DNA from: Promethearchaeota archaeon
GTDB lineage: Archaea; Asgardarchaeota; Lokiarchaeia; Sigyniarchaeales; SOKP01
Reading direction: 5' to 3'
Length of the DNA stretch: 16,538 bases
NCBI GenBank assembly: GCA_048939995.1
Contig: JBHLOY010000030.1
Span: forward strand, 1-16,538
Under the pieces are notes generated by a model. It was not told where the DNA came from and ran no database searches. It saw only the letters and a program-made list of their open reading frames with translations. This document shows positions 3,927-9,970 of this stretch, piece after piece (within the stretch, counting starts at the first letter, position 1; each line of letters opens with the position of its first letter). Made by a program: the position numbers and the translations under genes.

Positions 3927-5408
3927 TTAATCTTTGTTCTTTAATTCTGATACAATAGAACTATAAATTGTTTTAATGTTTATAATACTCAATAAAAATT
4001 TGAGGTCAGTCTTGGTAAAACCTTTCAAAAGAAAATTAATAGACAAATATAGAAATATGTCAATTATAATAAATATTGGAATAAAATAAAATGGGAAAGA
4101 AAATGAAATATTTACCCATAACTGAAATAAGAAAATCCCAAACATTATCACTAAGTTCCTAAATGATCCCCAATAAAATCCAAGATTAAATCTTTTATAA
4201 ATTATTGGTCTGTAGATTATTTGTGTAACTATTTTTGCAATTAGGTACGAAATTGCTCCTCCAAACACGTCTAAATTAAGAAATGAAGGAGAAATAAAGA
4301 AAATCATAAATAATATTGATAGCACATTTTCTAAAACTGAAAACTTCGCAATAAAACGAATTTCTCCTAAAGCCTGTAATTGTACAACATTTCCAATGTC
4401 AAGAGAAATAGGAATCAAAAGTAATACAAAAATAAATAAAATTTGACCTGTTAATCGATATTCATTACCAAACAATAATACAAAAAAGCCAGGAGCATAT
4501 AAATAAACGATAAAAACTATTGGTAGCAAGATTAAATTTAGAAATCGATGAGTATAGTTAATTATTTCAATGTTATCTTTCACTCTTCCGTTACTAATAT
4601 TCTTTGAAAAGGTAGTTATCAAAACATTTGAAATACTATTTGAAATAATCAAGAAATAATAAAAGAACTGTTTTGCAGTATAATAATTAGCTACATTATC
4701 AATAGAAGACCATGTATTAATCAATAATACATCAATGTTACTAACTATAAATAACAAACTGTTAGTAAAGAAGAATGGAAAACTATATTTGAAAAATCTA
4801 ATAATTAGTTCTTGATTTGGTTTTTTAAACTTCCTTTTTCTTAAAAAAAATAAGCTCAAGATAAAATGTGAAATATTAGATAATAAAATTATATTCATTA
4901 ATAACCAGATATCAAATTCAAAAAAAAATATTGATAAGATTAATAATATGTTTCTCAATAGCATCATAATCAATGAACATAAAGAATTTTTGAACACTTC
5001 TTTTTTACTTAAAAAAACTTGTTGAAAAAATTCAACTCTAAAAAAGCTCATAGCTATGAAAAAATAGTATCCTACGAAGATATTTCCTTCATAAGTTGGG
5101 GCTATTGGAATAAAAGCTAATACAAATATAGTGTAGATTGCAAATTGAAAAGTTCGAAATGTTAAAAAAGTCCCATTATATAATGCTTCTTCATCAGAAT
5201 TTTTAGCTTCGCCATAAAATTTCAAGTAAGCTAATTGGATTCCTAAATCAGTTATAAGACTAAATGTGGTAAGAAATGACAAGATTACCCCATAATATCC
5301 AACAATTTCAACAACAAAAAGAATTCTAATTAAATAGAAAAAAATCAAACTCAATGCAATATTGATTATATTTCCAATAATTAGAAGAAAAATTTTTGTG
5401 GAATCCAT
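3927..5408 (-). CDS. Oligosaccharide/polysaccharide flippase (Wzx/MOP superfamily)
   Basis: 493 aa, highly hydrophobic with many predicted TM segments. It has 'G.YG', 'TDLGI', 'FKYSFPF', 'NID.LLI', 'VANYYTA', 'LFG.EY' and 'GGAIS' motifs typical of polysaccharide-export flippases, and sits in a glycosyltransferase locus. Confidence 0.88.
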   Translation of the reverse strand: MDSTKIFLLIIGNIINIALSLIFFYLIRILFVVEIVGYYGVILSFLTTFSLITDLGIQLAYLKFYGEAKNSDEEALYNGTFLTFRTFQFAIYTIFVLAFIPIAPTYEGNIFVGYYFFIAMSFFRVEFFQQVFLSKKEVFKNSLCSLIMMLLRNILLILSIFFFEFDIWLLMNIILLSNISHFILSLFFLRKRKFKKPNQELIIRFFKYSFPFFFTNSLLFIVSNIDVLLINTWSSIDNVANYYTAKQFFYYFLIISNSISNVLITTFSKNISNGRVKDNIEIINYTHRFLNLILLPIVFIVYLYAPGFFVLLFGNEYRLTGQILFIFVLLLIPISLDIGNVVQLQALGEIRFIAKFSVLENVLSILFMIFFISPSFLNLDVFGGAISYLIAKIVTQIIYRPIIYKRFNLGFYWGSFRNLVIMFGIFLFQLWVNISFSFPFYFIPIFIIIDIFLYLSINFLLKGFTKTDLKFLLSIINIKTIYSSIVSELKNKD

Positions 5409-5475: not shown

Positions 5476-6354
5476 TCACACAATTTGAGAATTTAACCAA
5501 ATAGATAAATCTATATTTAATAAATTTTCTAACTCCTTAATATCAGTACTATATTGTGCATATAGTTTATTCTTTAATCGTAAATTTAACTTATCTTGAT
5601 CTTTCTTTTTTTCTGATAAGTCAAATATTTTCTTAAAAATCTTTAGTTTTGACGAAAGTGAATATAAATCATACGACATTAAAAAATTGTTTATATATTC
5701 AGAGAACTTGTATCCAAATGTATATAATAAATGGAATTTAGGAATATCTGAAGAATGAATTTTTTTTGTTACATTCAGGTTATCAAATGCATCATAATTA
5801 ATTCCTAAAAATCTTGAAATATTTTTAAGTGTCTTATATTTATTATTCATCATTTCTTCAAAAAACAATATAAGAAATCGTTCTTGTGGAAAAAATTTTA
5901 ACCAATTTTTTAAGTGTCGAGAATAGAGGCCAAGTTTAAAGGAGTGTGGCCGTTTATCCAAAAACTCCTTAAAACTTTCTTTATTATTTAAAATTAATCT
6001 ATTATATCTATATTCTGAAAATGCTCTATCTATTGGATTCCTTAAAAGCAAGATGAATTTAGAATTCGGGATATCTCTAGCCACACGAGCGGGAACTTCT
6101 TTATAATGAAAATATGTTGGGGAAATATCTCCTAACATTTTAAATTGAGGTGATTTTTTTGAAGATCGAAAAAATTTCTCATACCATCTTAACCCATTTT
6201 GATAATTAACACTAAAAAAGTTAATTTCTTTTATATAAGGGTATAAGTACACCTCAGGGTGATTTTTCAAAATTTCATATAACCATGTAGTACCACTTCT
6301 TTCAACACCTATACATAAGAAATCAGGAAGTATTTGCTCCCTATTATTTAACAA
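5476..6354 (-). CDS. PAPS-dependent sulfotransferase (heparan-sulfate-sulfotransferase-like domain)
   Basis: TTG start. 5'-PSB loop 'LPDFLCIGVERSGTTWLY', 'HP.V...KEINFF..NY..G..WY', 'GDISPTY', and 3'-PB motif 'LLRNPIDRAFSEY'. No signal peptide is apparent. Confidence 0.92.
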   Translation of the reverse strand: MLNNREQILPDFLCIGVERSGTTWLYEILKNHPEVYLYPYIKEINFFSVNYQNGLRWYEKFFRSSKKSPQFKMLGDISPTYFHYKEVPARVARDIPNSKFILLLRNPIDRAFSEYRYNRLILNNKESFKEFLDKRPHSFKLGLYSRHLKNWLKFFPQERFLILFFEEMMNNKYKTLKNISRFLGINYDAFDNLNVTKKIHSSDIPKFHLLYTFGYKFSEYINNFLMSYDLYSLSSKLKIFKKIFDLSEKKKDQDKLNLRLKNKLYAQYSTDIKELENLLNIDLSIWLNSQIV

Positions 6355-6497: not shown

Positions 6498-7031
6498 TTA
6501 AATAGGTAAATATCCCATTTTGTTTAATTCATCTAATATTATTTTTTTACTTTCTTCTACTGTTTGCTTATCAGTTTCAACAATTATATCTGCATGATTA
6601 GGGACCTCAAAAGGATGATCAATTCCAGTGAAATCTTTGATTTGGCCTGCTCTTGCTTTTGCAAACATACCTTTTACATCTCTTTGTTCACAAACCTCAA
6701 GTGAACATTTAACATAAACAAGGATATAATCTCCGATTTCCTTTCGAGAGTAATCACGAATCTTATTGTAGGGTGATACAAAAGAAGCGAGTACAGCAAC
6801 CCCATTTCGAGTCAATAATTTAGCAACAAATGTGACTCTTTCTATATTCATGTTTCTATCTTCTTCTGAAAATCCCAAATCGCGAGTGAGGCTTTTTCTG
6901 ACAATATCTCCATCAAGCCTCTCAACTTTCATTCCTCTATCCTTTAAGTCTTTAGCTACAGCATCAGCTAAGACAGTTTTTCCCGAACAAGGAAGTCCTG
7001 TAAACCACAGTGTAAATCCTTTATGTTCTAT
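6498..7031 (-). CDS. cysC: Adenylyl-sulfate (APS) kinase
   Basis: The ORF track starts at 6932, but the same frame extends 33 codons upstream through the P-loop: (ATA)EHKGFTLWFTGLPCSGKTVLADAVAKDLKDRG-MKVERLDGDIVR. It also has 'DLGFS.EDR..NIERV', 'SFVSPY', 'RDVKGM' and 'FTGID.PFE.P'. The probable start is ATA at 7031-7029, 7 nt after GGTGA. Confidence 0.93.
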   Translation of the reverse strand: MEHKGFTLWFTGLPCSGKTVLADAVAKDLKDRGMKVERLDGDIVRKSLTRDLGFSEEDRNMNIERVTFVAKLLTRNGVAVLASFVSPYNKIRDYSRKEIGDYILVYVKCSLEVCEQRDVKGMFAKARAGQIKDFTGIDHPFEVPNHADIIVETDKQTVEESKKIILDELNKMGYLPI

Positions 7032-7046: not shown

Positions 7047-8435
7047 TTAAAATTTTATAATATTACCTTCCATATCTTTTGGAATTTCAATTCCTAAAAT
7101 TGATAAACAAGTTGGAGCAATGTCTAATATACTTTTAGTTCCTAATTCTTTTCCAATCTTCAATTTTGGATTGGATATAATATAGATTCCATAATAATCA
7201 TGAACAGCATCATCTGGTCCAGTATCATTCTCTTTTAAATACATTGAATCATAACCTACTGTACCAGCTGATCTCCAATTTAGATCATCGAAATATACCA
7301 TCAAATCAGGTGGGTCTCCGCGAATTTTTGAATAGAAATCCTCTGGTCTGTAGACTCTTGTATTCATAATGTTTCCCGCGTCATCTTTTATTGATTTAAT
7401 TTTCTCAGCCACAAAAGTTCTCATTTTTTCATAATCTTCTTCTTTAATTATACCTTGAGGCTCTCTTCCTTCAACATTCAAAAAGATTCGAGCATAATAA
7501 CCCCCCCACCCCCAGGCGTAAGTTTTACTCCAATCTATTTCAGCGTTTTCTAATCTAGTTCCTGGTTCAGGCCTCTTTTTGAATACTAATAATCCTAACT
7601 CTTCAAAAGCCATATTAATACATATTAACCCTTTCATAGCTTTAGCTCCATGATCAGATGCTATAATAACAGTGGTAATGTCATCCAGAAGATCTAATAC
7701 TTCTCCTACTTCTTTATCTAAAAATCTATAGTAATTTCGCATTTCATTTTCGAACTCATTACCTGGAATATATTTACTATGCTCTTTATCAAAATATTTC
7801 CAGAAAGCATGATGAAATCTATCTAAACCTATAATAACAAACTGAAAGTAGTCCCATTCTTTAGTTTTCATTAAATGTCTTATTGTCTTAAATTGAATTG
7901 TTGTCATTTCATAAATTTCATTTAACAGAGCTTTTTTATCATCTATTCTAAAATTAGCGTCTAGAATATATTTTCCAACTTCTCTTTTTATTTCTTCTTT
8001 CAGTTCTGGTGGAAATGTGTAGTTTGAATCTATATCAGGTGCTATAAAACCAGCAATTAAATTTCCGTTAATAGATTTGACTGGATAGGTAGGTGGAGTT
8101 CCAATAATTATGCTTTTTAATCCACTCTTGCCAATTATATCCCAGATGGTAGGTTCTTTTATTGAATACGAACTAGCAATCCAAAAATCATTATATGCAT
8201 ATTGTTTTCGATGTCTAAATCCATAAAGTCCAAGTGTTCCTGCTTTTTTGCCCGTTGCCATAACCATCCATGCTGGAATCGTTATAGGGGGATCTGAACT
8301 TTTTAACTTTCCATAGACTCCTTTTCCCATTAATTTTCTTATGTTTGGGCAATCATCAATAAATTCATTAAATAAAGTTCTTGGACTAGCACAATCGAGA
8401 CCAATTAAGACTAATTTCTTCTTTTGATTATTCAT
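7047..8435 (-). CDS. Alkaline phosphatase superfamily protein (type I phosphodiesterase / nucleotide pyrophosphatase-like)
   Basis: 462 aa. Metal ligands 'GLDCA', 'DRFHH', 'SDHG' and 'DAVH', with a Thr nucleophile in 'SSDPPITIPAW...TGK..G..G.YGF'. There is no CxPxR sulfatase motif and no signal peptide. Confidence 0.88.
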   Translation of the reverse strand: MNNQKKKLVLIGLDCASPRTLFNEFIDDCPNIRKLMGKGVYGKLKSSDPPITIPAWMVMATGKKAGTLGLYGFRHRKQYAYNDFWIASSYSIKEPTIWDIIGKSGLKSIIIGTPPTYPVKSINGNLIAGFIAPDIDSNYTFPPELKEEIKREVGKYILDANFRIDDKKALLNEIYEMTTIQFKTIRHLMKTKEWDYFQFVIIGLDRFHHAFWKYFDKEHSKYIPGNEFENEMRNYYRFLDKEVGEVLDLLDDITTVIIASDHGAKAMKGLICINMAFEELGLLVFKKRPEPGTRLENAEIDWSKTYAWGWGGYYARIFLNVEGREPQGIIKEEDYEKMRTFVAEKIKSIKDDAGNIMNTRVYRPEDFYSKIRGDPPDLMVYFDDLNWRSAGTVGYDSMYLKENDTGPDDAVHDYYGIYIISNPKLKIGKELGTKSILDIAPTCLSILGIEIPKDMEGNIIKF

Positions 8436-8467: not shown

Positions 8468-9616
8468 TTATGTTACAAATGGATTTTCATATTTTAAAAT
8501 AACCTCAGCGACTTCTGGTCTCATTACTTCGGGATCAGGTGGTTTACCTGCTAAGAGAGCAGCTCTAATCTCTCGACCTGCAAAATAATTCTGCATATTA
8601 GGCGGATGTGGGCAAATTTTATCGTTTACAACTGCTTCACATTTACGGCATTTAGAAAAAGAACGAAATTTAATAGGTTCGATTCCCAAATCTGGAAATT
8701 TGTCAAAAATAAAATGGGCATCATAAGGACCATAATAATCACCCACTCCAGCATGATCTCTTCCAATAATTATATGAGTGCATCCAAAATTCTTACGAGC
8801 TATCGCATGATATATAGCTTCTTTAGGACCTGCATATCTCATCTCTGTTTCAAATGTACTTATTACAACTCGATCCCTAGGATAATATTCTTTAATTAGC
8901 GCTTTATAAGCTTCAATAATTACGATATCCAAGAAATCACCTTCCTTTTTCTTTCCAATTACTGGATTTATGAATAATCCATCGACATATGTTAACCCTG
9001 CTTTTTGTACATACTCGTGACCCAGGTGTGGAGGGTTTCTTGTTTGAAATGCCACCACTCTTTCCCACTTTTTTTCCTTAAATAAGACTCTCGTTTCTAT
9101 AGGCTTTAAATCTAATTCAGGAAAAGAAGCAACTGGTTCATTAATAAGGAAAATCTGTCCTCCCATTAATTTATCTTTATAATTAAAAGTATTGTTAACA
9201 CCTGGATGATTTCTATCTAGTGTTCCATAGGTCTTCATAGCATATTCCTTTTTGTCATAACTATAAATATCTTCGATACTCATGAGAGCAATTGGGTAAT
9301 CTTTTTTGTCTGTTAAAATAATTTGATCATCTGGCTCAATATTCTTGGCTTCCTCATCTGAAACATCTAGAGTAATAGGAATCGGCCAAGGAACATCCTT
9401 TTCTAAATACATCGTGTCTAAAACATATTGATAATCATTTTGATTCATAAAACCTTCTAAAGGACTGAAAACTCCAAATGAAATACTTTTAATTATCTTT
9501 AGGGTTTCATTATCTACTTGGATTTTTTCAAACTCGTTGGTTTGTTTTAAAATCCTTTCTTTCTCAAACTTAGGTAACACTTTATTAATTAAAGTGCCTC
9601 CATGTGGCGCTATCAT
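8468..9616 (-). CDS. sat: Sulfate adenylyltransferase (ATP sulfurylase, Sat type)
   Basis: 382 aa. 'MIAPHGG.L', 'SPLEGFM', 'WPIPITL', 'HPGV', 'VAFQTRNPPHLGHEY', 'MRYAGPKEA', 'GRDHAGVGDYY', Zn site 'CRKC...CPH' and 'MRPEV'. Confidence 0.97.
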   Translation of the reverse strand: MIAPHGGTLINKVLPKFEKERILKQTNEFEKIQVDNETLKIIKSISFGVFSPLEGFMNQNDYQYVLDTMYLEKDVPWPIPITLDVSDEEAKNIEPDDQIILTDKKDYPIALMSIEDIYSYDKKEYAMKTYGTLDRNHPGVNNTFNYKDKLMGGQIFLINEPVASFPELDLKPIETRVLFKEKKWERVVAFQTRNPPHLGHEYVQKAGLTYVDGLFINPVIGKKKEGDFLDIVIIEAYKALIKEYYPRDRVVISTFETEMRYAGPKEAIYHAIARKNFGCTHIIIGRDHAGVGDYYGPYDAHFIFDKFPDLGIEPIKFRSFSKCRKCEAVVNDKICPHPPNMQNYFAGREIRAALLAGKPPDPEVMRPEVAEVILKYENPFVT

Positions 9617-9662: not shown

Positions 9663-9902
9663 TTAATCAATATAACCTAAGTCTCTCAGTCTTTGTTTAA
9701 CTTTCTCTTCCTCTTCTTCAGTAAAAGCTTGTTTTGATCGTTCTTCTTCTTCAATGGAAGATAGAACTTGCCTAAGAATATAAGTCACATAACTAGAAAC
9801 TGAGGAGAATCCTGTTCCCTTCATTCGCTCTTTTATTTTTTCTGCTAATACTTTAGGGATTGATACTGTTGTATATTCAACCTTATGTTCATCTTCGGAC
9901 AT
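9663..9902 (-). CDS. Ribbon-helix-helix (CopG/MetJ/Arc-like) DNA-binding protein with acidic 'RLxxLGY' C-terminal tail
   Basis: 79 aa. A beta-strand 'YTTVSIP', helix A 'KVLAEKIKERM', 'GFSSVS' turn and helix B 'SYVTYILRQVL' form the RHH pattern. The tail is 'FTEEEEEKVKQRLRDLGYID'. It is the first gene of the sat operon. Confidence 0.82.
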   Translation of the reverse strand: MSEDEHKVEYTTVSIPKVLAEKIKERMKGTGFSSVSSYVTYILRQVLSSIEEEERSKQAFTEEEEEKVKQRLRDLGYID

Positions 9903-9950
9903 TGCATATCAATTATAGAATTTAATTATATTTAATTAAATAAAATTAAT

Positions 9951-9970
9951 ATTTATAAAAAACCTTTCTA
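9951..9970 (-). promoter_or_regulatory. Putative archaeal promoter (BRE + TATA box) for the RHH-sat-NPP-cysC operon
   Basis: The minus strand reads TAGAAAGGTTT-TTTATAAA-T: a purine-rich BRE-like element just upstream of TTTATAAA (9952-9959), about 50 nt before the RHH ATG. The AT-rich background weakens specificity. Confidence 0.45.

What the first reader, a model, noticed from the sequence alone, without database searches (positions are those of the whole stretch)
9663..9740. RHH regulator carries the 'EE..V..RL..LGY' tail that is missing from the neighbouring AlkP-family enzyme
Seen: after the RHH fold the protein ends in 'AFTEEEEEKVKQRLRDLGYID', while the 462-aa AlkP/NPP enzyme two genes downstream stops right after its last core motif ('DMEGNIIKF'). 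From my knowledge of these families, an acidic helix plus 'RLxxLGY(I/L)' is a recurrent extreme C-terminal tail of sulfatase-like and NPP-like proteins and follows exactly that 'M.G..' motif. CysC here also ends similarly ('LNKMGYLPI'). Inference: the tail has moved onto a transcription factor and may work in trans. It could dock the regulator on the AlkP enzyme (coupling enzyme state to operon transcription), or its Tyr could be a sulfuryl/phosphoryl acceptor or shuttle, by analogy to the Tyr acyl-shuttle motif of DltX. I know of no description of such a regulator-enzyme pair.
Basis: partly seen in the sequence, partly recalled or inferred. Interest (0 to 1): 0.8.

Follow-up and report, generated by a model that had tools for sequence, protein, structure and literature searches.

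The report
Shared tail on sulfate-operon repressor
A small DNA-binding repressor that heads an archaeal sulfate-activation operon ends in a 20-residue helical tail that also ends many enzymes of the same pathway in other microbes; the tail is real and apparently undescribed, but what it binds is still unknown.

Summary
The 79-aa protein (9663-9902, minus strand) has a ribbon-helix-helix (RHH) fold. It ends in a tail of the form [F/Y]-[S/T]-x-acidic run-[V/I]-K-x-R-L-x-x-L-G-Y-[I/L]. The same tail sits at the extreme C-terminus of 27 of 150 representative homologues of the neighbouring NPP/AlkP enzyme. It also occurs on sulfatase-family proteins and as an add-on to APS kinases. It was never found on ATP sulfurylase.

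All NPP orthologues that sit in a cassette with an RHH gene lack the tail.

The RHH gene heads sulfate-activation operons (sat, or cysDN, or tauE) in Asgard, Thermoplasmatota, Bathyarchaeia and some bacteria. A conserved 16-bp operator, TAATTA-N4-TAATTA, lies in its own promoter (window 9923-9938).

The tail is invariant in the RHH family but sporadic on enzymes, so it more likely spread from the regulator to the enzymes than the reverse. Tail-bearing RHHs also occur in genomes where I found no cassette-type NPP, no Sat and no CysC. That argues against obligate docking on the NPP and against PAPS-dependent tyrosine sulfation.

My best reading is a self-capped docking helix that gives dimer-dimer cooperativity on the two-hexamer operator. 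The copG-sat-NPP-cysC cluster itself is already published (PMC8268124). The tail and the operator appear to be undescribed.

The parts
9663..9902 (-). RHH (CopG/Arc-type) regulator gene, 79 aa, first gene of the operon
   Evidence: ORF. AF2 model has pLDDT 84 with an extended segment at 11-16 and helices at 17-27 and 35-57. Foldseek top hits are all RHH proteins: Arc, the NikR N-domain (rmsd 1.0-1.3 A), ParD and MazE6, with weak E-values. A profile search against PDB finds the NikR RHH domain at E 0.045. There are 710 homologues.
9666..9728 (-). C-terminal tail module, residues 59-79: F60-T61 N-cap, acidic then basic helix 62-74, L75-G76-Y77 C-cap, I78-D79
   Evidence: Helix 62-74 with pLDDT about 83. 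Invariant L72, L75, G76, Y77. The tail profile scores 53.5 bits and is unique in the genome. The same module is on NPP, sulfatase and CysC proteins.
9923..9938 (.). Predicted operator TAATTA-N4-TAATTA (minus strand reads TAATTAAATATAATTA), 21-36 nt upstream of the RHH start codon
   Evidence: Sequence. Found in 35 of 51 Asgard RHH upstream regions against 3% of AT-matched background windows. Found in 23 of 35 non-Asgard upstream regions with at most 1 mismatch, against 1 of 1747 background windows from the same loci.
9951..9962 (-). TATA-like element TTTTTTATAAAT. It would place the transcription start inside the operator.
   Evidence: Read directly. The spacing argument is inference from the usual archaeal distance of about 26 nt between TATA box and transcription start.
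8468..9616 (-). ATP sulfurylase (Sat), tail-less
   Evidence: PF01747 plus PUA_2, and NCBIfam sulfate adenylyltransferase. Sits immediately downstream of the RHH gene in nearly all loci. None of 126 Sat ORFs carries the tail.
7047..8435 (-). NPP/AlkP-family enzyme (PF01663), tail-less, ends at the last core motif
   Evidence: Alignment A4 with tail-bearing homologues. Natural Sat-NPP and CysC-NPP-tail fusions exist elsewhere.
6498..7031 (-). APS kinase (CysC), native C-terminus only. The P-loop lies upstream of the first ATG, and ATA at 7031-7029 sits where orthologues have Met.
5476..6354 (-). PAPS-dependent sulfotransferase
   Evidence: PF00685 and PF13469.
3927..5408 (-). Wzx-like (MOP family) polysaccharide flippase, last gene of the co-oriented block
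   Evidence: PF13440 and PF01943.

Best explanation
The 79-aa protein is an RHH autorepressor of the PAPS-synthesis and glycan-sulfation operon RHH-sat-NPP-cysC(-sulfotransferase-flippase). Its two-stranded beta-sheet reads palindromic TAATTA hexamers. The operator has two hexamers one helical turn apart (9923-9938), between a TATA-like box and the start codon. Two dimers bound there would block transcription initiation.

The tail is a self-capped, pre-formed amphipathic helix:
- an aromatic staple plus a Ser/Thr N-cap;
- an acidic N-terminal half and a basic C-terminal half;
- a narrow V/L/L hydrophobic stripe;
- a Gly-Tyr C-cap.

I infer that the tail is a protein-protein contact element native to this RHH family. 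In this genome the RHH is the only protein carrying it. There it most likely pairs with the tail of the adjacent dimer, giving cooperative dimer-of-dimers binding, as the C-terminal helix of Mnt does. In other lineages the same module was captured by neighbouring genes (cysC, NPP, sulfatases).

Shown computationally: the fold, the operon linkage, the operator, and the distribution of the tail. Inferred: repression, tetramerisation, and the role of the tail.
For: - Fold.
- Linkage: the RHH gene lies directly upstream of sat in about 34 of 40 loci and about 70 of 80 loci, across Asgard, Thermoplasmata, DHVE2, Bathyarchaeia, Nitrososphaerota and Actinomycetota. Elsewhere it heads cysD-cysN or tauE operons.
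- Operator: 35/51 against 3% and 23/35 against 1/1747. A Chloroflexota locus has two copies 21 bp apart.
- Tail: L72, L75, G76, Y77 are among only five invariant columns of a 37-sequence alignment spanning 27-68% identity. It is modelled as helix 62-74.
- Sole carrier: the RHH is the only tail-bearing ORF in G000, in most of the 90 Asgard genomes that have a match, and in G301-G305. A partner that is itself tail-bearing is therefore not required.
- Direction: all RHH family members carry the tail. By contrast it is on about 12 of 109 CysC, 5 of 146 cassette-type NPPs and 12 of 34 NPP paralogues. A CysC-RHH-tail fusion exists in L174.
Against: - No multimer model and no experiment was possible, so tail-tail pairing is inferred from the charge and hydrophobic pattern alone.
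- The carriers are restricted to sulfate-pathway families. PAPS cassettes nearly always have at least one carrier, and usually exactly one. Sat never carries the tail. These patterns fit a docking peptide with a pathway-specific receptor at least as well as they fit self-association.
- Self-association gives no obvious benefit to CysC, NPP or sulfatases.
- Pfam and NCBIfam give no RHH hit for this protein, and the Foldseek E-values are weak.
Confidence: 0.5

Rival explanations
1. Trans-docking peptide. The tail binds a receptor surface on a pathway protein (Sat, NPP, CysC or another AlkP-fold protein). In bacteria it tethers CysC, NPP or sulfatases into a sulfate-activation complex. In archaea it tethers the repressor, so that enzyme occupancy controls transcription.
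For: - Carriers are only RHH, CysC, PF01663 and PF00884 proteins, in 176 hits and in 251 Chloroflexota genomes.
- None of 126 Sat ORFs carries it.
- There is typically one carrier per cassette. The one complete cassette with no tail-bearing protein at all had Sat and CysC fused.
- Nominal anticorrelation between RHH and tails on NPP or CysC.
- Sat-NPP fusions pair with tail-bearing CysC, and CysC-NPP fusions keep a tail.
- The RHH is more conserved (87-95%) than its enzymes (63-84%).
Against: - Tail-bearing RHHs occur in genomes where no Sat (G301-305), no CysC (G303-305) or no cassette-type NPP (G306-310) was found. No single enzyme is therefore a universal receptor.
- Some PF01663 protein is present in all of these genomes, but that family is common everywhere.
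- The anticorrelation follows taxonomy and sampling.
Confidence: 0.27
2. Small-ligand sensor. The basic face of the helix together with the Gly-Tyr cap binds sulfate, sulfite, APS, PAPS or PAP, possibly at an interface. That would give the repressor and the enzymes a common feedback input.
For: All carriers handle sulfate esters or sulfonucleotides. The RHH also controls tauE and cysDN operons, which fits a sulfur-anion effector. K and R positions are conserved.
Against: A 20-residue single helix is an unlikely autonomous ligand site. Nearly every conserved residue is already explained by helix capping and stability.
Confidence: 0.1
3. Tyr77 is a covalent sulfuryl or phosphoryl acceptor or shuttle, analogous to DltX.
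For: Tyr is invariant. A PAPS-dependent sulfotransferase is in the operon.
Against: - The tail, with its Tyr, is perfectly conserved (56-58 bits) in genomes where I found no Sat and no CysC, so no PAPS route.
- The sulfotransferase is not part of the conserved cassette.
- Arg at -5 and -3 and the lack of adjacent acidic residues do not fit known tyrosine-sulfation sites (general knowledge).
- Gly-Tyr fits a Schellman-type helix C-cap (general knowledge).
- The protein has no transmembrane segment and no DltB-like partner.
Confidence: 0.03
4. The resemblance is convergent. Any C-terminal helix with a Schellman cap looks like L-x-x-L-G-Y, so the tails are unrelated.
For: Native CysC ends (..ELGYI.) score 14-20 bits on the tail profile without being add-ons. 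An RNA polymerase alpha-CTD helix also aligned weakly.
Against: The similarity extends over about 20 residues, including the aromatic-Ser/Thr N-cap and the acidic run, with scores of 22-58 bits. It is always at the extreme C-terminus and only in four pathway-linked families.
Confidence: 0.05

Closest known systems
Putative copG transcription factor (PYCH_17520) of the archaeal sulfate-assimilation cluster copG-sat-DHH pApase-NPP-cysC, described for Pyrococcus yayanosii, Aciduliprofundum boonei and others (PMC8268124)
   Same: Same gene order and same families. My Aciduliprofundum and DHVE2 loci (L136, L137, L139) carry RHH-sat-(DHH)-...-cysC. The paper also notes a tauE neighbour, and it speculates that the NPP removes PPi.
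   Different: The paper names the regulator only once, as putative. It describes no operator, no tail, and no shared module with the enzymes. The window's Asgard version lacks the DHH pApase and is embedded in a glycan locus with a sulfotransferase and a flippase.
Mnt and Arc repressors of phage P22 (RHH proteins that bind as tetramers; Mnt tetramerises through a C-terminal helix). From general knowledge.
   Same: An RHH fold, an operator made of two adjacent subsites about one helical turn apart, and a C-terminal helical extension.
   Different: No sequence relationship beyond the fold. Tetramerisation is untested here. The Mnt helix is not shared with enzymes.
NikR (an RHH domain plus a C-terminal sensor and tetramerisation domain)
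   Same: It is the best sequence and structure match to the N-terminal 40 residues. A C-terminal part governs oligomerisation and effector response.
   Different: NikR has an 80-residue ACT-like nickel-binding domain. Here there is only a 20-residue helix.
Short C-terminal docking peptides shared by unrelated proteins (the SSB acidic tail, encapsulin cargo-loading peptides). From general knowledge.
   Same: A portable module at the extreme C-terminus, behind a variable linker, on several families encoded in one locus.
   Different: No receptor or shell gene was identified. The sequence pattern is different. One carrier here is a transcription factor.
DltX C-terminal tyrosine acyl shuttle
   Same: A small protein with a conserved Tyr near the C-terminus.
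   Different: DltX is a membrane protein that works with an MBOAT partner. The RHH has no hydrophobic segment and no such partner, and its tail persists without PAPS synthesis genes.

Membership tests
Ribbon-helix-helix (CopG/Arc/MetJ) DNA-binding proteins | An N-terminal beta-strand followed by two helices | tested here: met
   AF2 model: extended segment at 11-16, helices at 17-27 and 35-57, pLDDT 91-93 over residues 11-50. Foldseek top hits are exclusively RHH proteins (TM to target 0.7-0.77; NikR rmsd 1.0-1.3 A over 40-42 residues), although E-values are 0.6-5.
Ribbon-helix-helix (CopG/Arc/MetJ) DNA-binding proteins | A match to a curated RHH sequence family | tested here: inconclusive
   No Pfam or NCBIfam hit at E<=0.01. 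A profile of the family against PDB sequences finds the NikR RHH domains at E 0.045-0.12. Source annotations call homologues 'CopG family'.
Ribbon-helix-helix (CopG/Arc/MetJ) DNA-binding proteins | Binds repeated or palindromic operator subsites, usually in its own promoter | tested here: inconclusive
   A conserved TAATTA-N4-TAATTA element lies upstream of the gene in many phyla. Binding itself cannot be tested with these tools.
copG gene of the archaeal sulfate-assimilation cluster (PMC8268124) | A small regulator gene directly upstream of sat, in a cluster with NPP and/or DHH pApase and cysC | tested here: met
   Window gene order. Conserved in about 100 loci. Cluster description.
C-terminal tail module of NPP-like and sulfatase-like proteins | Aromatic-Ser/Thr, an acidic run, [V/I]-K-x-R-L-x-x-L-G-Y-[I/L], ending 0-3 residues before the stop | tested here: met
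   The RHH tail scores 53.5 bits on the profile. The same module is on PF01663, PF00884 and CysC proteins.
Regulator-enzyme pair in which the tail docks on the neighbouring NPP | The regulator tail co-occurs with the cassette-type NPP | tested here: not met
   RHH-sat-cysC cassettes without an NPP (L104, L107, L109, L113-116, L120; Thermoplasmata have a DHH gene instead). Their genomes yield only distant paralogues, or none, with this query. MAG completeness is unknown.
Regulator-enzyme pair in which the tail docks on the neighbouring NPP | Physical interaction between the tail and the NPP | not testable with these tools
   Only single-chain folding is offered, and it returns no coordinates or contact maps.
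Tyrosine sulfation or shuttle substrates (TPST/RaxST-type, DltX-type) | Depends on a PAPS (or acyl) donor system present in the same organism | tested here: not met
   A perfect tail occurs in G303-G305, where no PF01747 and no PF01583 was found.
Tyrosine sulfation or shuttle substrates (TPST/RaxST-type, DltX-type) | Covalent modification of the Tyr | not testable with these tools
   Needs mass spectrometry.

The most novel reading that the evidence does not exclude
The tail is a pathway-specific docking peptide with a 'one tail per cassette' logic. Whichever protein carries it is tethered to a common receptor in the sulfate-activation machinery. The carrier is CysC, NPP or a sulfatase in many bacteria, and the repressor in archaea. 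In archaea the free or occupied state of that receptor would then directly set transcription of the PAPS operon. That would be an enzyme-titrated repressor using a peptide shared with the pathway's own enzymes.
Probability: 0.25. Interest if true: 0.85.

Novelty: new variant of a known kind. Interest (0 to 1): 0.6.

Why it matters
I know of no experimentally characterised regulator of sulfate activation in archaea, and none turned up in my searches. This work gives a testable regulator-operator pair (RHH plus TAATTA-N4-TAATTA) conserved from Asgard archaea to Chloroflexota.

It also defines a 20-residue portable C-terminal module that a transcription factor shares with the enzymes of the pathway it controls. 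If the module is a docking peptide, it would reveal either a new way of coupling enzyme state to transcription or a hidden sulfate-activation complex. If it is an oligomerisation helix, it is a compact, transferable tetramerisation tag.

In either case it gives annotators a signature for sulfate-pathway AlkP-superfamily proteins.

Tried and rejected
I obtained contexts through the genome search, the fetch from genomes and the search for related loci instead.
- Searching the tail region against longer proteins in the 5.8-billion-protein set gave nothing useful: 29 candidates and 1 hit.
- The ESM Atlas search with the tail alone gave no usable hit.
- Two alignments were too diverse for the search for related loci and had to be narrowed.
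- Sat as universal receptor: rejected as universal, because five RHH genomes show no PF01747.
- CysC as universal receptor: not found in three of the five genomes G301-G305.
- Wzx-type flippase as receptor. It is adjacent to several tail carriers. A home-made flippase profile, however, finds it in only about 10-20% of tail-bearing loci, so I rejected it.
- Membrane-targeting helix: rejected from the sequence. The hydrophobic stripe is only three residues wide and is preceded by an acidic run.
- HbYX-type proteasome-docking motif: the Tyr is not preceded by a hydrophobic residue and is often at -3, so I did not pursue it.
- Genome-wide TAATTA-N4-5-TAATTA in G000: 17 strict hits, about what chance gives in a 30% GC genome. 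No regulon can be read from it. The identical 16-mer at contig C37 position 154995 was not followed up beyond listing ORFs.
- Literature searches for tail strings and for RHH plus sulfate terms found no description of the tail.
Single-chain models without coordinates cannot distinguish the rival mechanisms. I considered an artificial RHH-Sat read-through model and dropped it for that reason.
- Locus L248 comes from an unpublished genome (G455).

Full report
**What is in the window.** The window is an entire 16.5-kb contig of an AT-rich (30.5% GC) Asgard genome. On the minus strand lie six co-oriented genes:
- a 79-aa ORF (9663-9902);
- ATP sulfurylase Sat (8468-9616; PF01747);
- a PF01663 NPP/AlkP-family enzyme (7047-8435);
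- APS kinase CysC (6498-about 7031);
- a sulfotransferase (5476-6354);
- a Wzx-like flippase (3927-5408).

The 79-aa protein ends ...AFTEEEEEKVKQRLRDLGYID. The NPP ends ...DMEGNIIKF. CysC ends ...LNKMGYLPI.

**The small protein is an RHH protein.** Pfam and NCBIfam give no hit. A profile of the family against PDB sequences finds the RHH domain of NikR (E 0.045). An AlphaFold2 model (mean pLDDT 84) shows an extended segment at 11-16, helices at 17-27 and 35-57, a break, and a third helix at 62-74 followed by LGYID. The Foldseek top hits are all RHH proteins: Arc, the NikR N-domain at 1.0-1.3 A rmsd, ParD and MazE6. E-values are weak, as expected for a 45-residue fold.

**It belongs to sulfate activation across phyla.**
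- The family has 710 members in the large protein set. Asgard members are 87-100% identical to the query.
- It is patchy: 92 of 301 Asgard genomes and 8 of 27 in the window's own genus. The cassette is therefore an accessory island.
- In 40 Asgard loci and 80 loci from all of GTDB, the gene sits directly upstream of sat in nearly all cases. The usual order is RHH-sat-NPP-cysC, sometimes with the RHH gene after cysC.
- Relatives at 54-72% identity occur in Thermoplasmata, DHVE2/Aciduliprofundum, Bathyarchaeia, Nitrososphaerota, Chloroflexota, Dehalococcoidales and Actinomycetota.
- Where sat is missing, the gene heads cysD-(small AlkP-like)-cysN operons or a tauE gene. The association therefore survives replacement of the sulfurylase by a non-homologous one.
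- In Thermoplasmata a DHH-family gene occupies the NPP's place.
- This cluster, including a 'putative copG transcription factor', has been described for Pyrococcus yayanosii, Aciduliprofundum boonei and others. In that work the DHH protein was shown to be a pAp phosphatase and the NPP was speculated to remove PPi (PMC8268124).

**A conserved operator.** Upstream of the RHH genes lies TAATTA-N4-TAATTA (consensus TAATTAAATATAATTA).
- In the window it is at 9923-9938, which is 21-36 nt before the ATG. A TATA-like TTTTTTATAAAT lies at 9951-9962.
- The element is present in 35 of 51 distinct Asgard upstream regions, against 3% of AT-matched background windows.
- With at most one mismatch it is present in 23 of 35 non-Asgard upstream regions, including GC-richer ones. 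The same loci give 1 of 1747 background windows.
- A Chloroflexota locus has two perfect copies.
- More divergent RHHs (about 30-40% identity, with a different beta-strand sequence) lack it.

Two palindromic hexamers one helical turn apart imply two RHH dimers side by side. The position implies repression at the transcription start. Both points are inference.

**The tail is a real, shared module.**
- In a 37-sequence alignment spanning 27-68% identity to the query, the only invariant columns are L19, L72, L75, G76 and Y77.
- A search of 1.84 billion representatives with the window's NPP found 13,138 homologues. Of the best 150, 27 end in the same module. Examples are ...GFSEEEEELVKQRLMELGYM...YSKEEEEEIKQRLAHLGYF and ...WSKEEEERIKERLKSLGYID.
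- In alignment A4 the window's enzyme stops where these continue with a variable linker and the tail.
- A tail profile finds 176 hits among 16,463 ORFs of all fetched loci, every one ending within 3 residues of the C-terminus.
- The carriers are 135 small proteins (nearly all RHH homologues), 14 CysC hits (about 12 add-on tails and 2 native ends), 5 cassette-type NPPs, 3 CysC-NPP fusions, 12 NPP paralogues and 7 proteins that Pfam identifies as sulfatase family. None of the 126 Sat ORFs carries it.
- In 251 Chloroflexota genomes the carriers are again only RHH, CysC and AlkP-family proteins.
- In tail-bearing CysC the native end (..LELMGYIP) is kept and the module follows after about 10 residues. 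The window's CysC ending is therefore the native fold end, not the module.
- I found no Pfam or NCBIfam model and no paper describing the module.

**Reading the module.** The following rests on established knowledge of helix capping, not on a tool result.
- Aromatic-Ser/Thr-x-x-Glu is a hydrophobic staple plus a capping box.
- L-x-x-L-G-Y is a Schellman-type C-cap.
- Acidic residues at the N-terminal half and basic residues at the C-terminal half favour the helix dipole and i/i+4 salt bridges.
- The hydrophobic face is only V68, L72 and L75, plus Y77 and I78.

The conserved positions thus describe an intrinsically stable single helix with a narrow contact stripe. That suits protein-protein contact rather than membrane binding or catalysis. 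The AF2 helix at 62-74 fits this reading.

(a) Anticorrelation. Counting unique cassette-type NPPs gives: tail with RHH 0, tail without RHH 8, no tail with RHH 69, no tail without RHH 62 (Fisher 0.006). For add-on CysC tails the counts are 1 with RHH and 11 without. Of nine AlkP-anchored loci that hold both sat and a complete cysC, seven pass the profile threshold. An eighth (L174) has weaker-scoring tails. The ninth has Sat and CysC fused. These numbers are nominal, because RHH-bearing loci are mostly archaeal and closely related, and many metagenome contigs are short.
(b) Requirement for the NPP. Several cassettes are RHH-sat-cysC only. In five such genomes the NPP query finds only 27-39% paralogues, or nothing.
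(c) Requirement for Sat or CysC. Five genomes with cysDN- or tauE-linked RHHs show no PF01747, and three of them show no PF01583. In all five the RHH is the only tail-bearing ORF, at 56-58 bits. One of these records is titled a chromosome. For the others completeness is unknown.
(d) Direction. The tail is universal in the RHH family and sporadic on enzymes. A natural CysC-RHH-tail fusion exists (L174). In some loci the RHH gene lies directly behind cysC, so a small deletion could leave the tail on the enzyme.

**Conclusion.** The 'tail moved from the NPP to the regulator' story is probably reversed. Obligate docking on the neighbouring NPP and PAPS-dependent Tyr sulfation are both disfavoured.

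In this genome the RHH is the only protein carrying the tail. The simplest role here is contact between the two operator-bound dimers. The main rival is a docking peptide for a pathway receptor. The strict restriction of the module to sulfate-pathway families, the lack of any tail on Sat, and the roughly one carrier per cassette keep that rival alive.

Natural Sat-NPP and CysC-NPP fusions show independently that the NPP is an integral part of the PAPS machinery.

**Limits.** No multimer modelling, coordinates or contact maps were available. All genome absences are 'not found in those searched'. Statistics across kin overstate significance.

Noticed in passing
window 7029-7031 (minus strand): The CysC P-loop (GLPCSGKT) lies upstream of the first ATG/GTG/TTG. 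Orthologues begin MEHKGFTLWFTG, and the window has ATA exactly at that Met position, 7 nt after GGTGA. This points to an ATA start or an ATG-to-ATA change or sequencing error.
   Followed up: partly
L172, L177, L183, L189, L202 (Sat-NPP, about 860 aa); L164-L166 (CysC-NPP-tail, 709-759 aa); L232 (Sat-CysC, 583 aa): Natural fusions tie the cassette-type NPP to both Sat and CysC. This Rosetta-stone evidence shows it works inside PAPS synthesis. Published speculation is that it removes PPi; pAp or APS turnover are my own alternatives.
   Followed up: partly
L174:1752-2504 (+): A 250-aa protein made of a full APS kinase domain followed by an RHH domain and the tail. It is a natural enzyme-regulator fusion, sitting directly upstream of sat.
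   Followed up: partly
L121-L130, L125:7484-8527, L123:7387-8367: In Thermoplasmata a DHH-family phosphoesterase replaces the NPP between sat and cysC. A DHH pApase from this cluster type has been characterised in Pyrococcus yayanosii (PMC8268124).
   Followed up: partly
L141:7034-7732, L144, L147:8409-9188: In cysD-cysN cassettes headed by the same RHH, a short (232-259 aa) PF01663-like protein is inserted between or after cysD and cysN. An AlkP-fold partner thus accompanies both non-homologous kinds of ATP sulfurylase.
   Followed up: no
L153-L158 (Asgard genomes G011, G259, G041, G022, G225, G132): Tail-bearing PF01663 and PF00884 paralogues of 419-573 aa sit in glycan-biosynthesis loci (GT4, sugar epimerase, Wzx-like flippase) with no sat or cysC nearby.
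   Followed up: partly
genome-wide: The RHH cassette is present in only 8 of 27 genomes of the window's genus and 37 of 68 of its family, although it is 87-100% conserved where present. It behaves as an accessory glycan-sulfation island.
   Followed up: no
G000 contig C37, position 154995: An identical copy of the 16-mer TAATTATATTTAATTA lies between a 274-aa minus-strand ORF and a 76-aa plus-strand ORF. It may be chance, since there are 17 strict hits genome-wide.
   Followed up: no
G000 contig C11, about 452 kb: A 68-aa ORF ends ...SRSEAIRTALREFLHNEYKNLKLLGYFDE. It looks like another RHH with a Gly-Tyr helix cap, but the tail profile does not match it.
   Followed up: no
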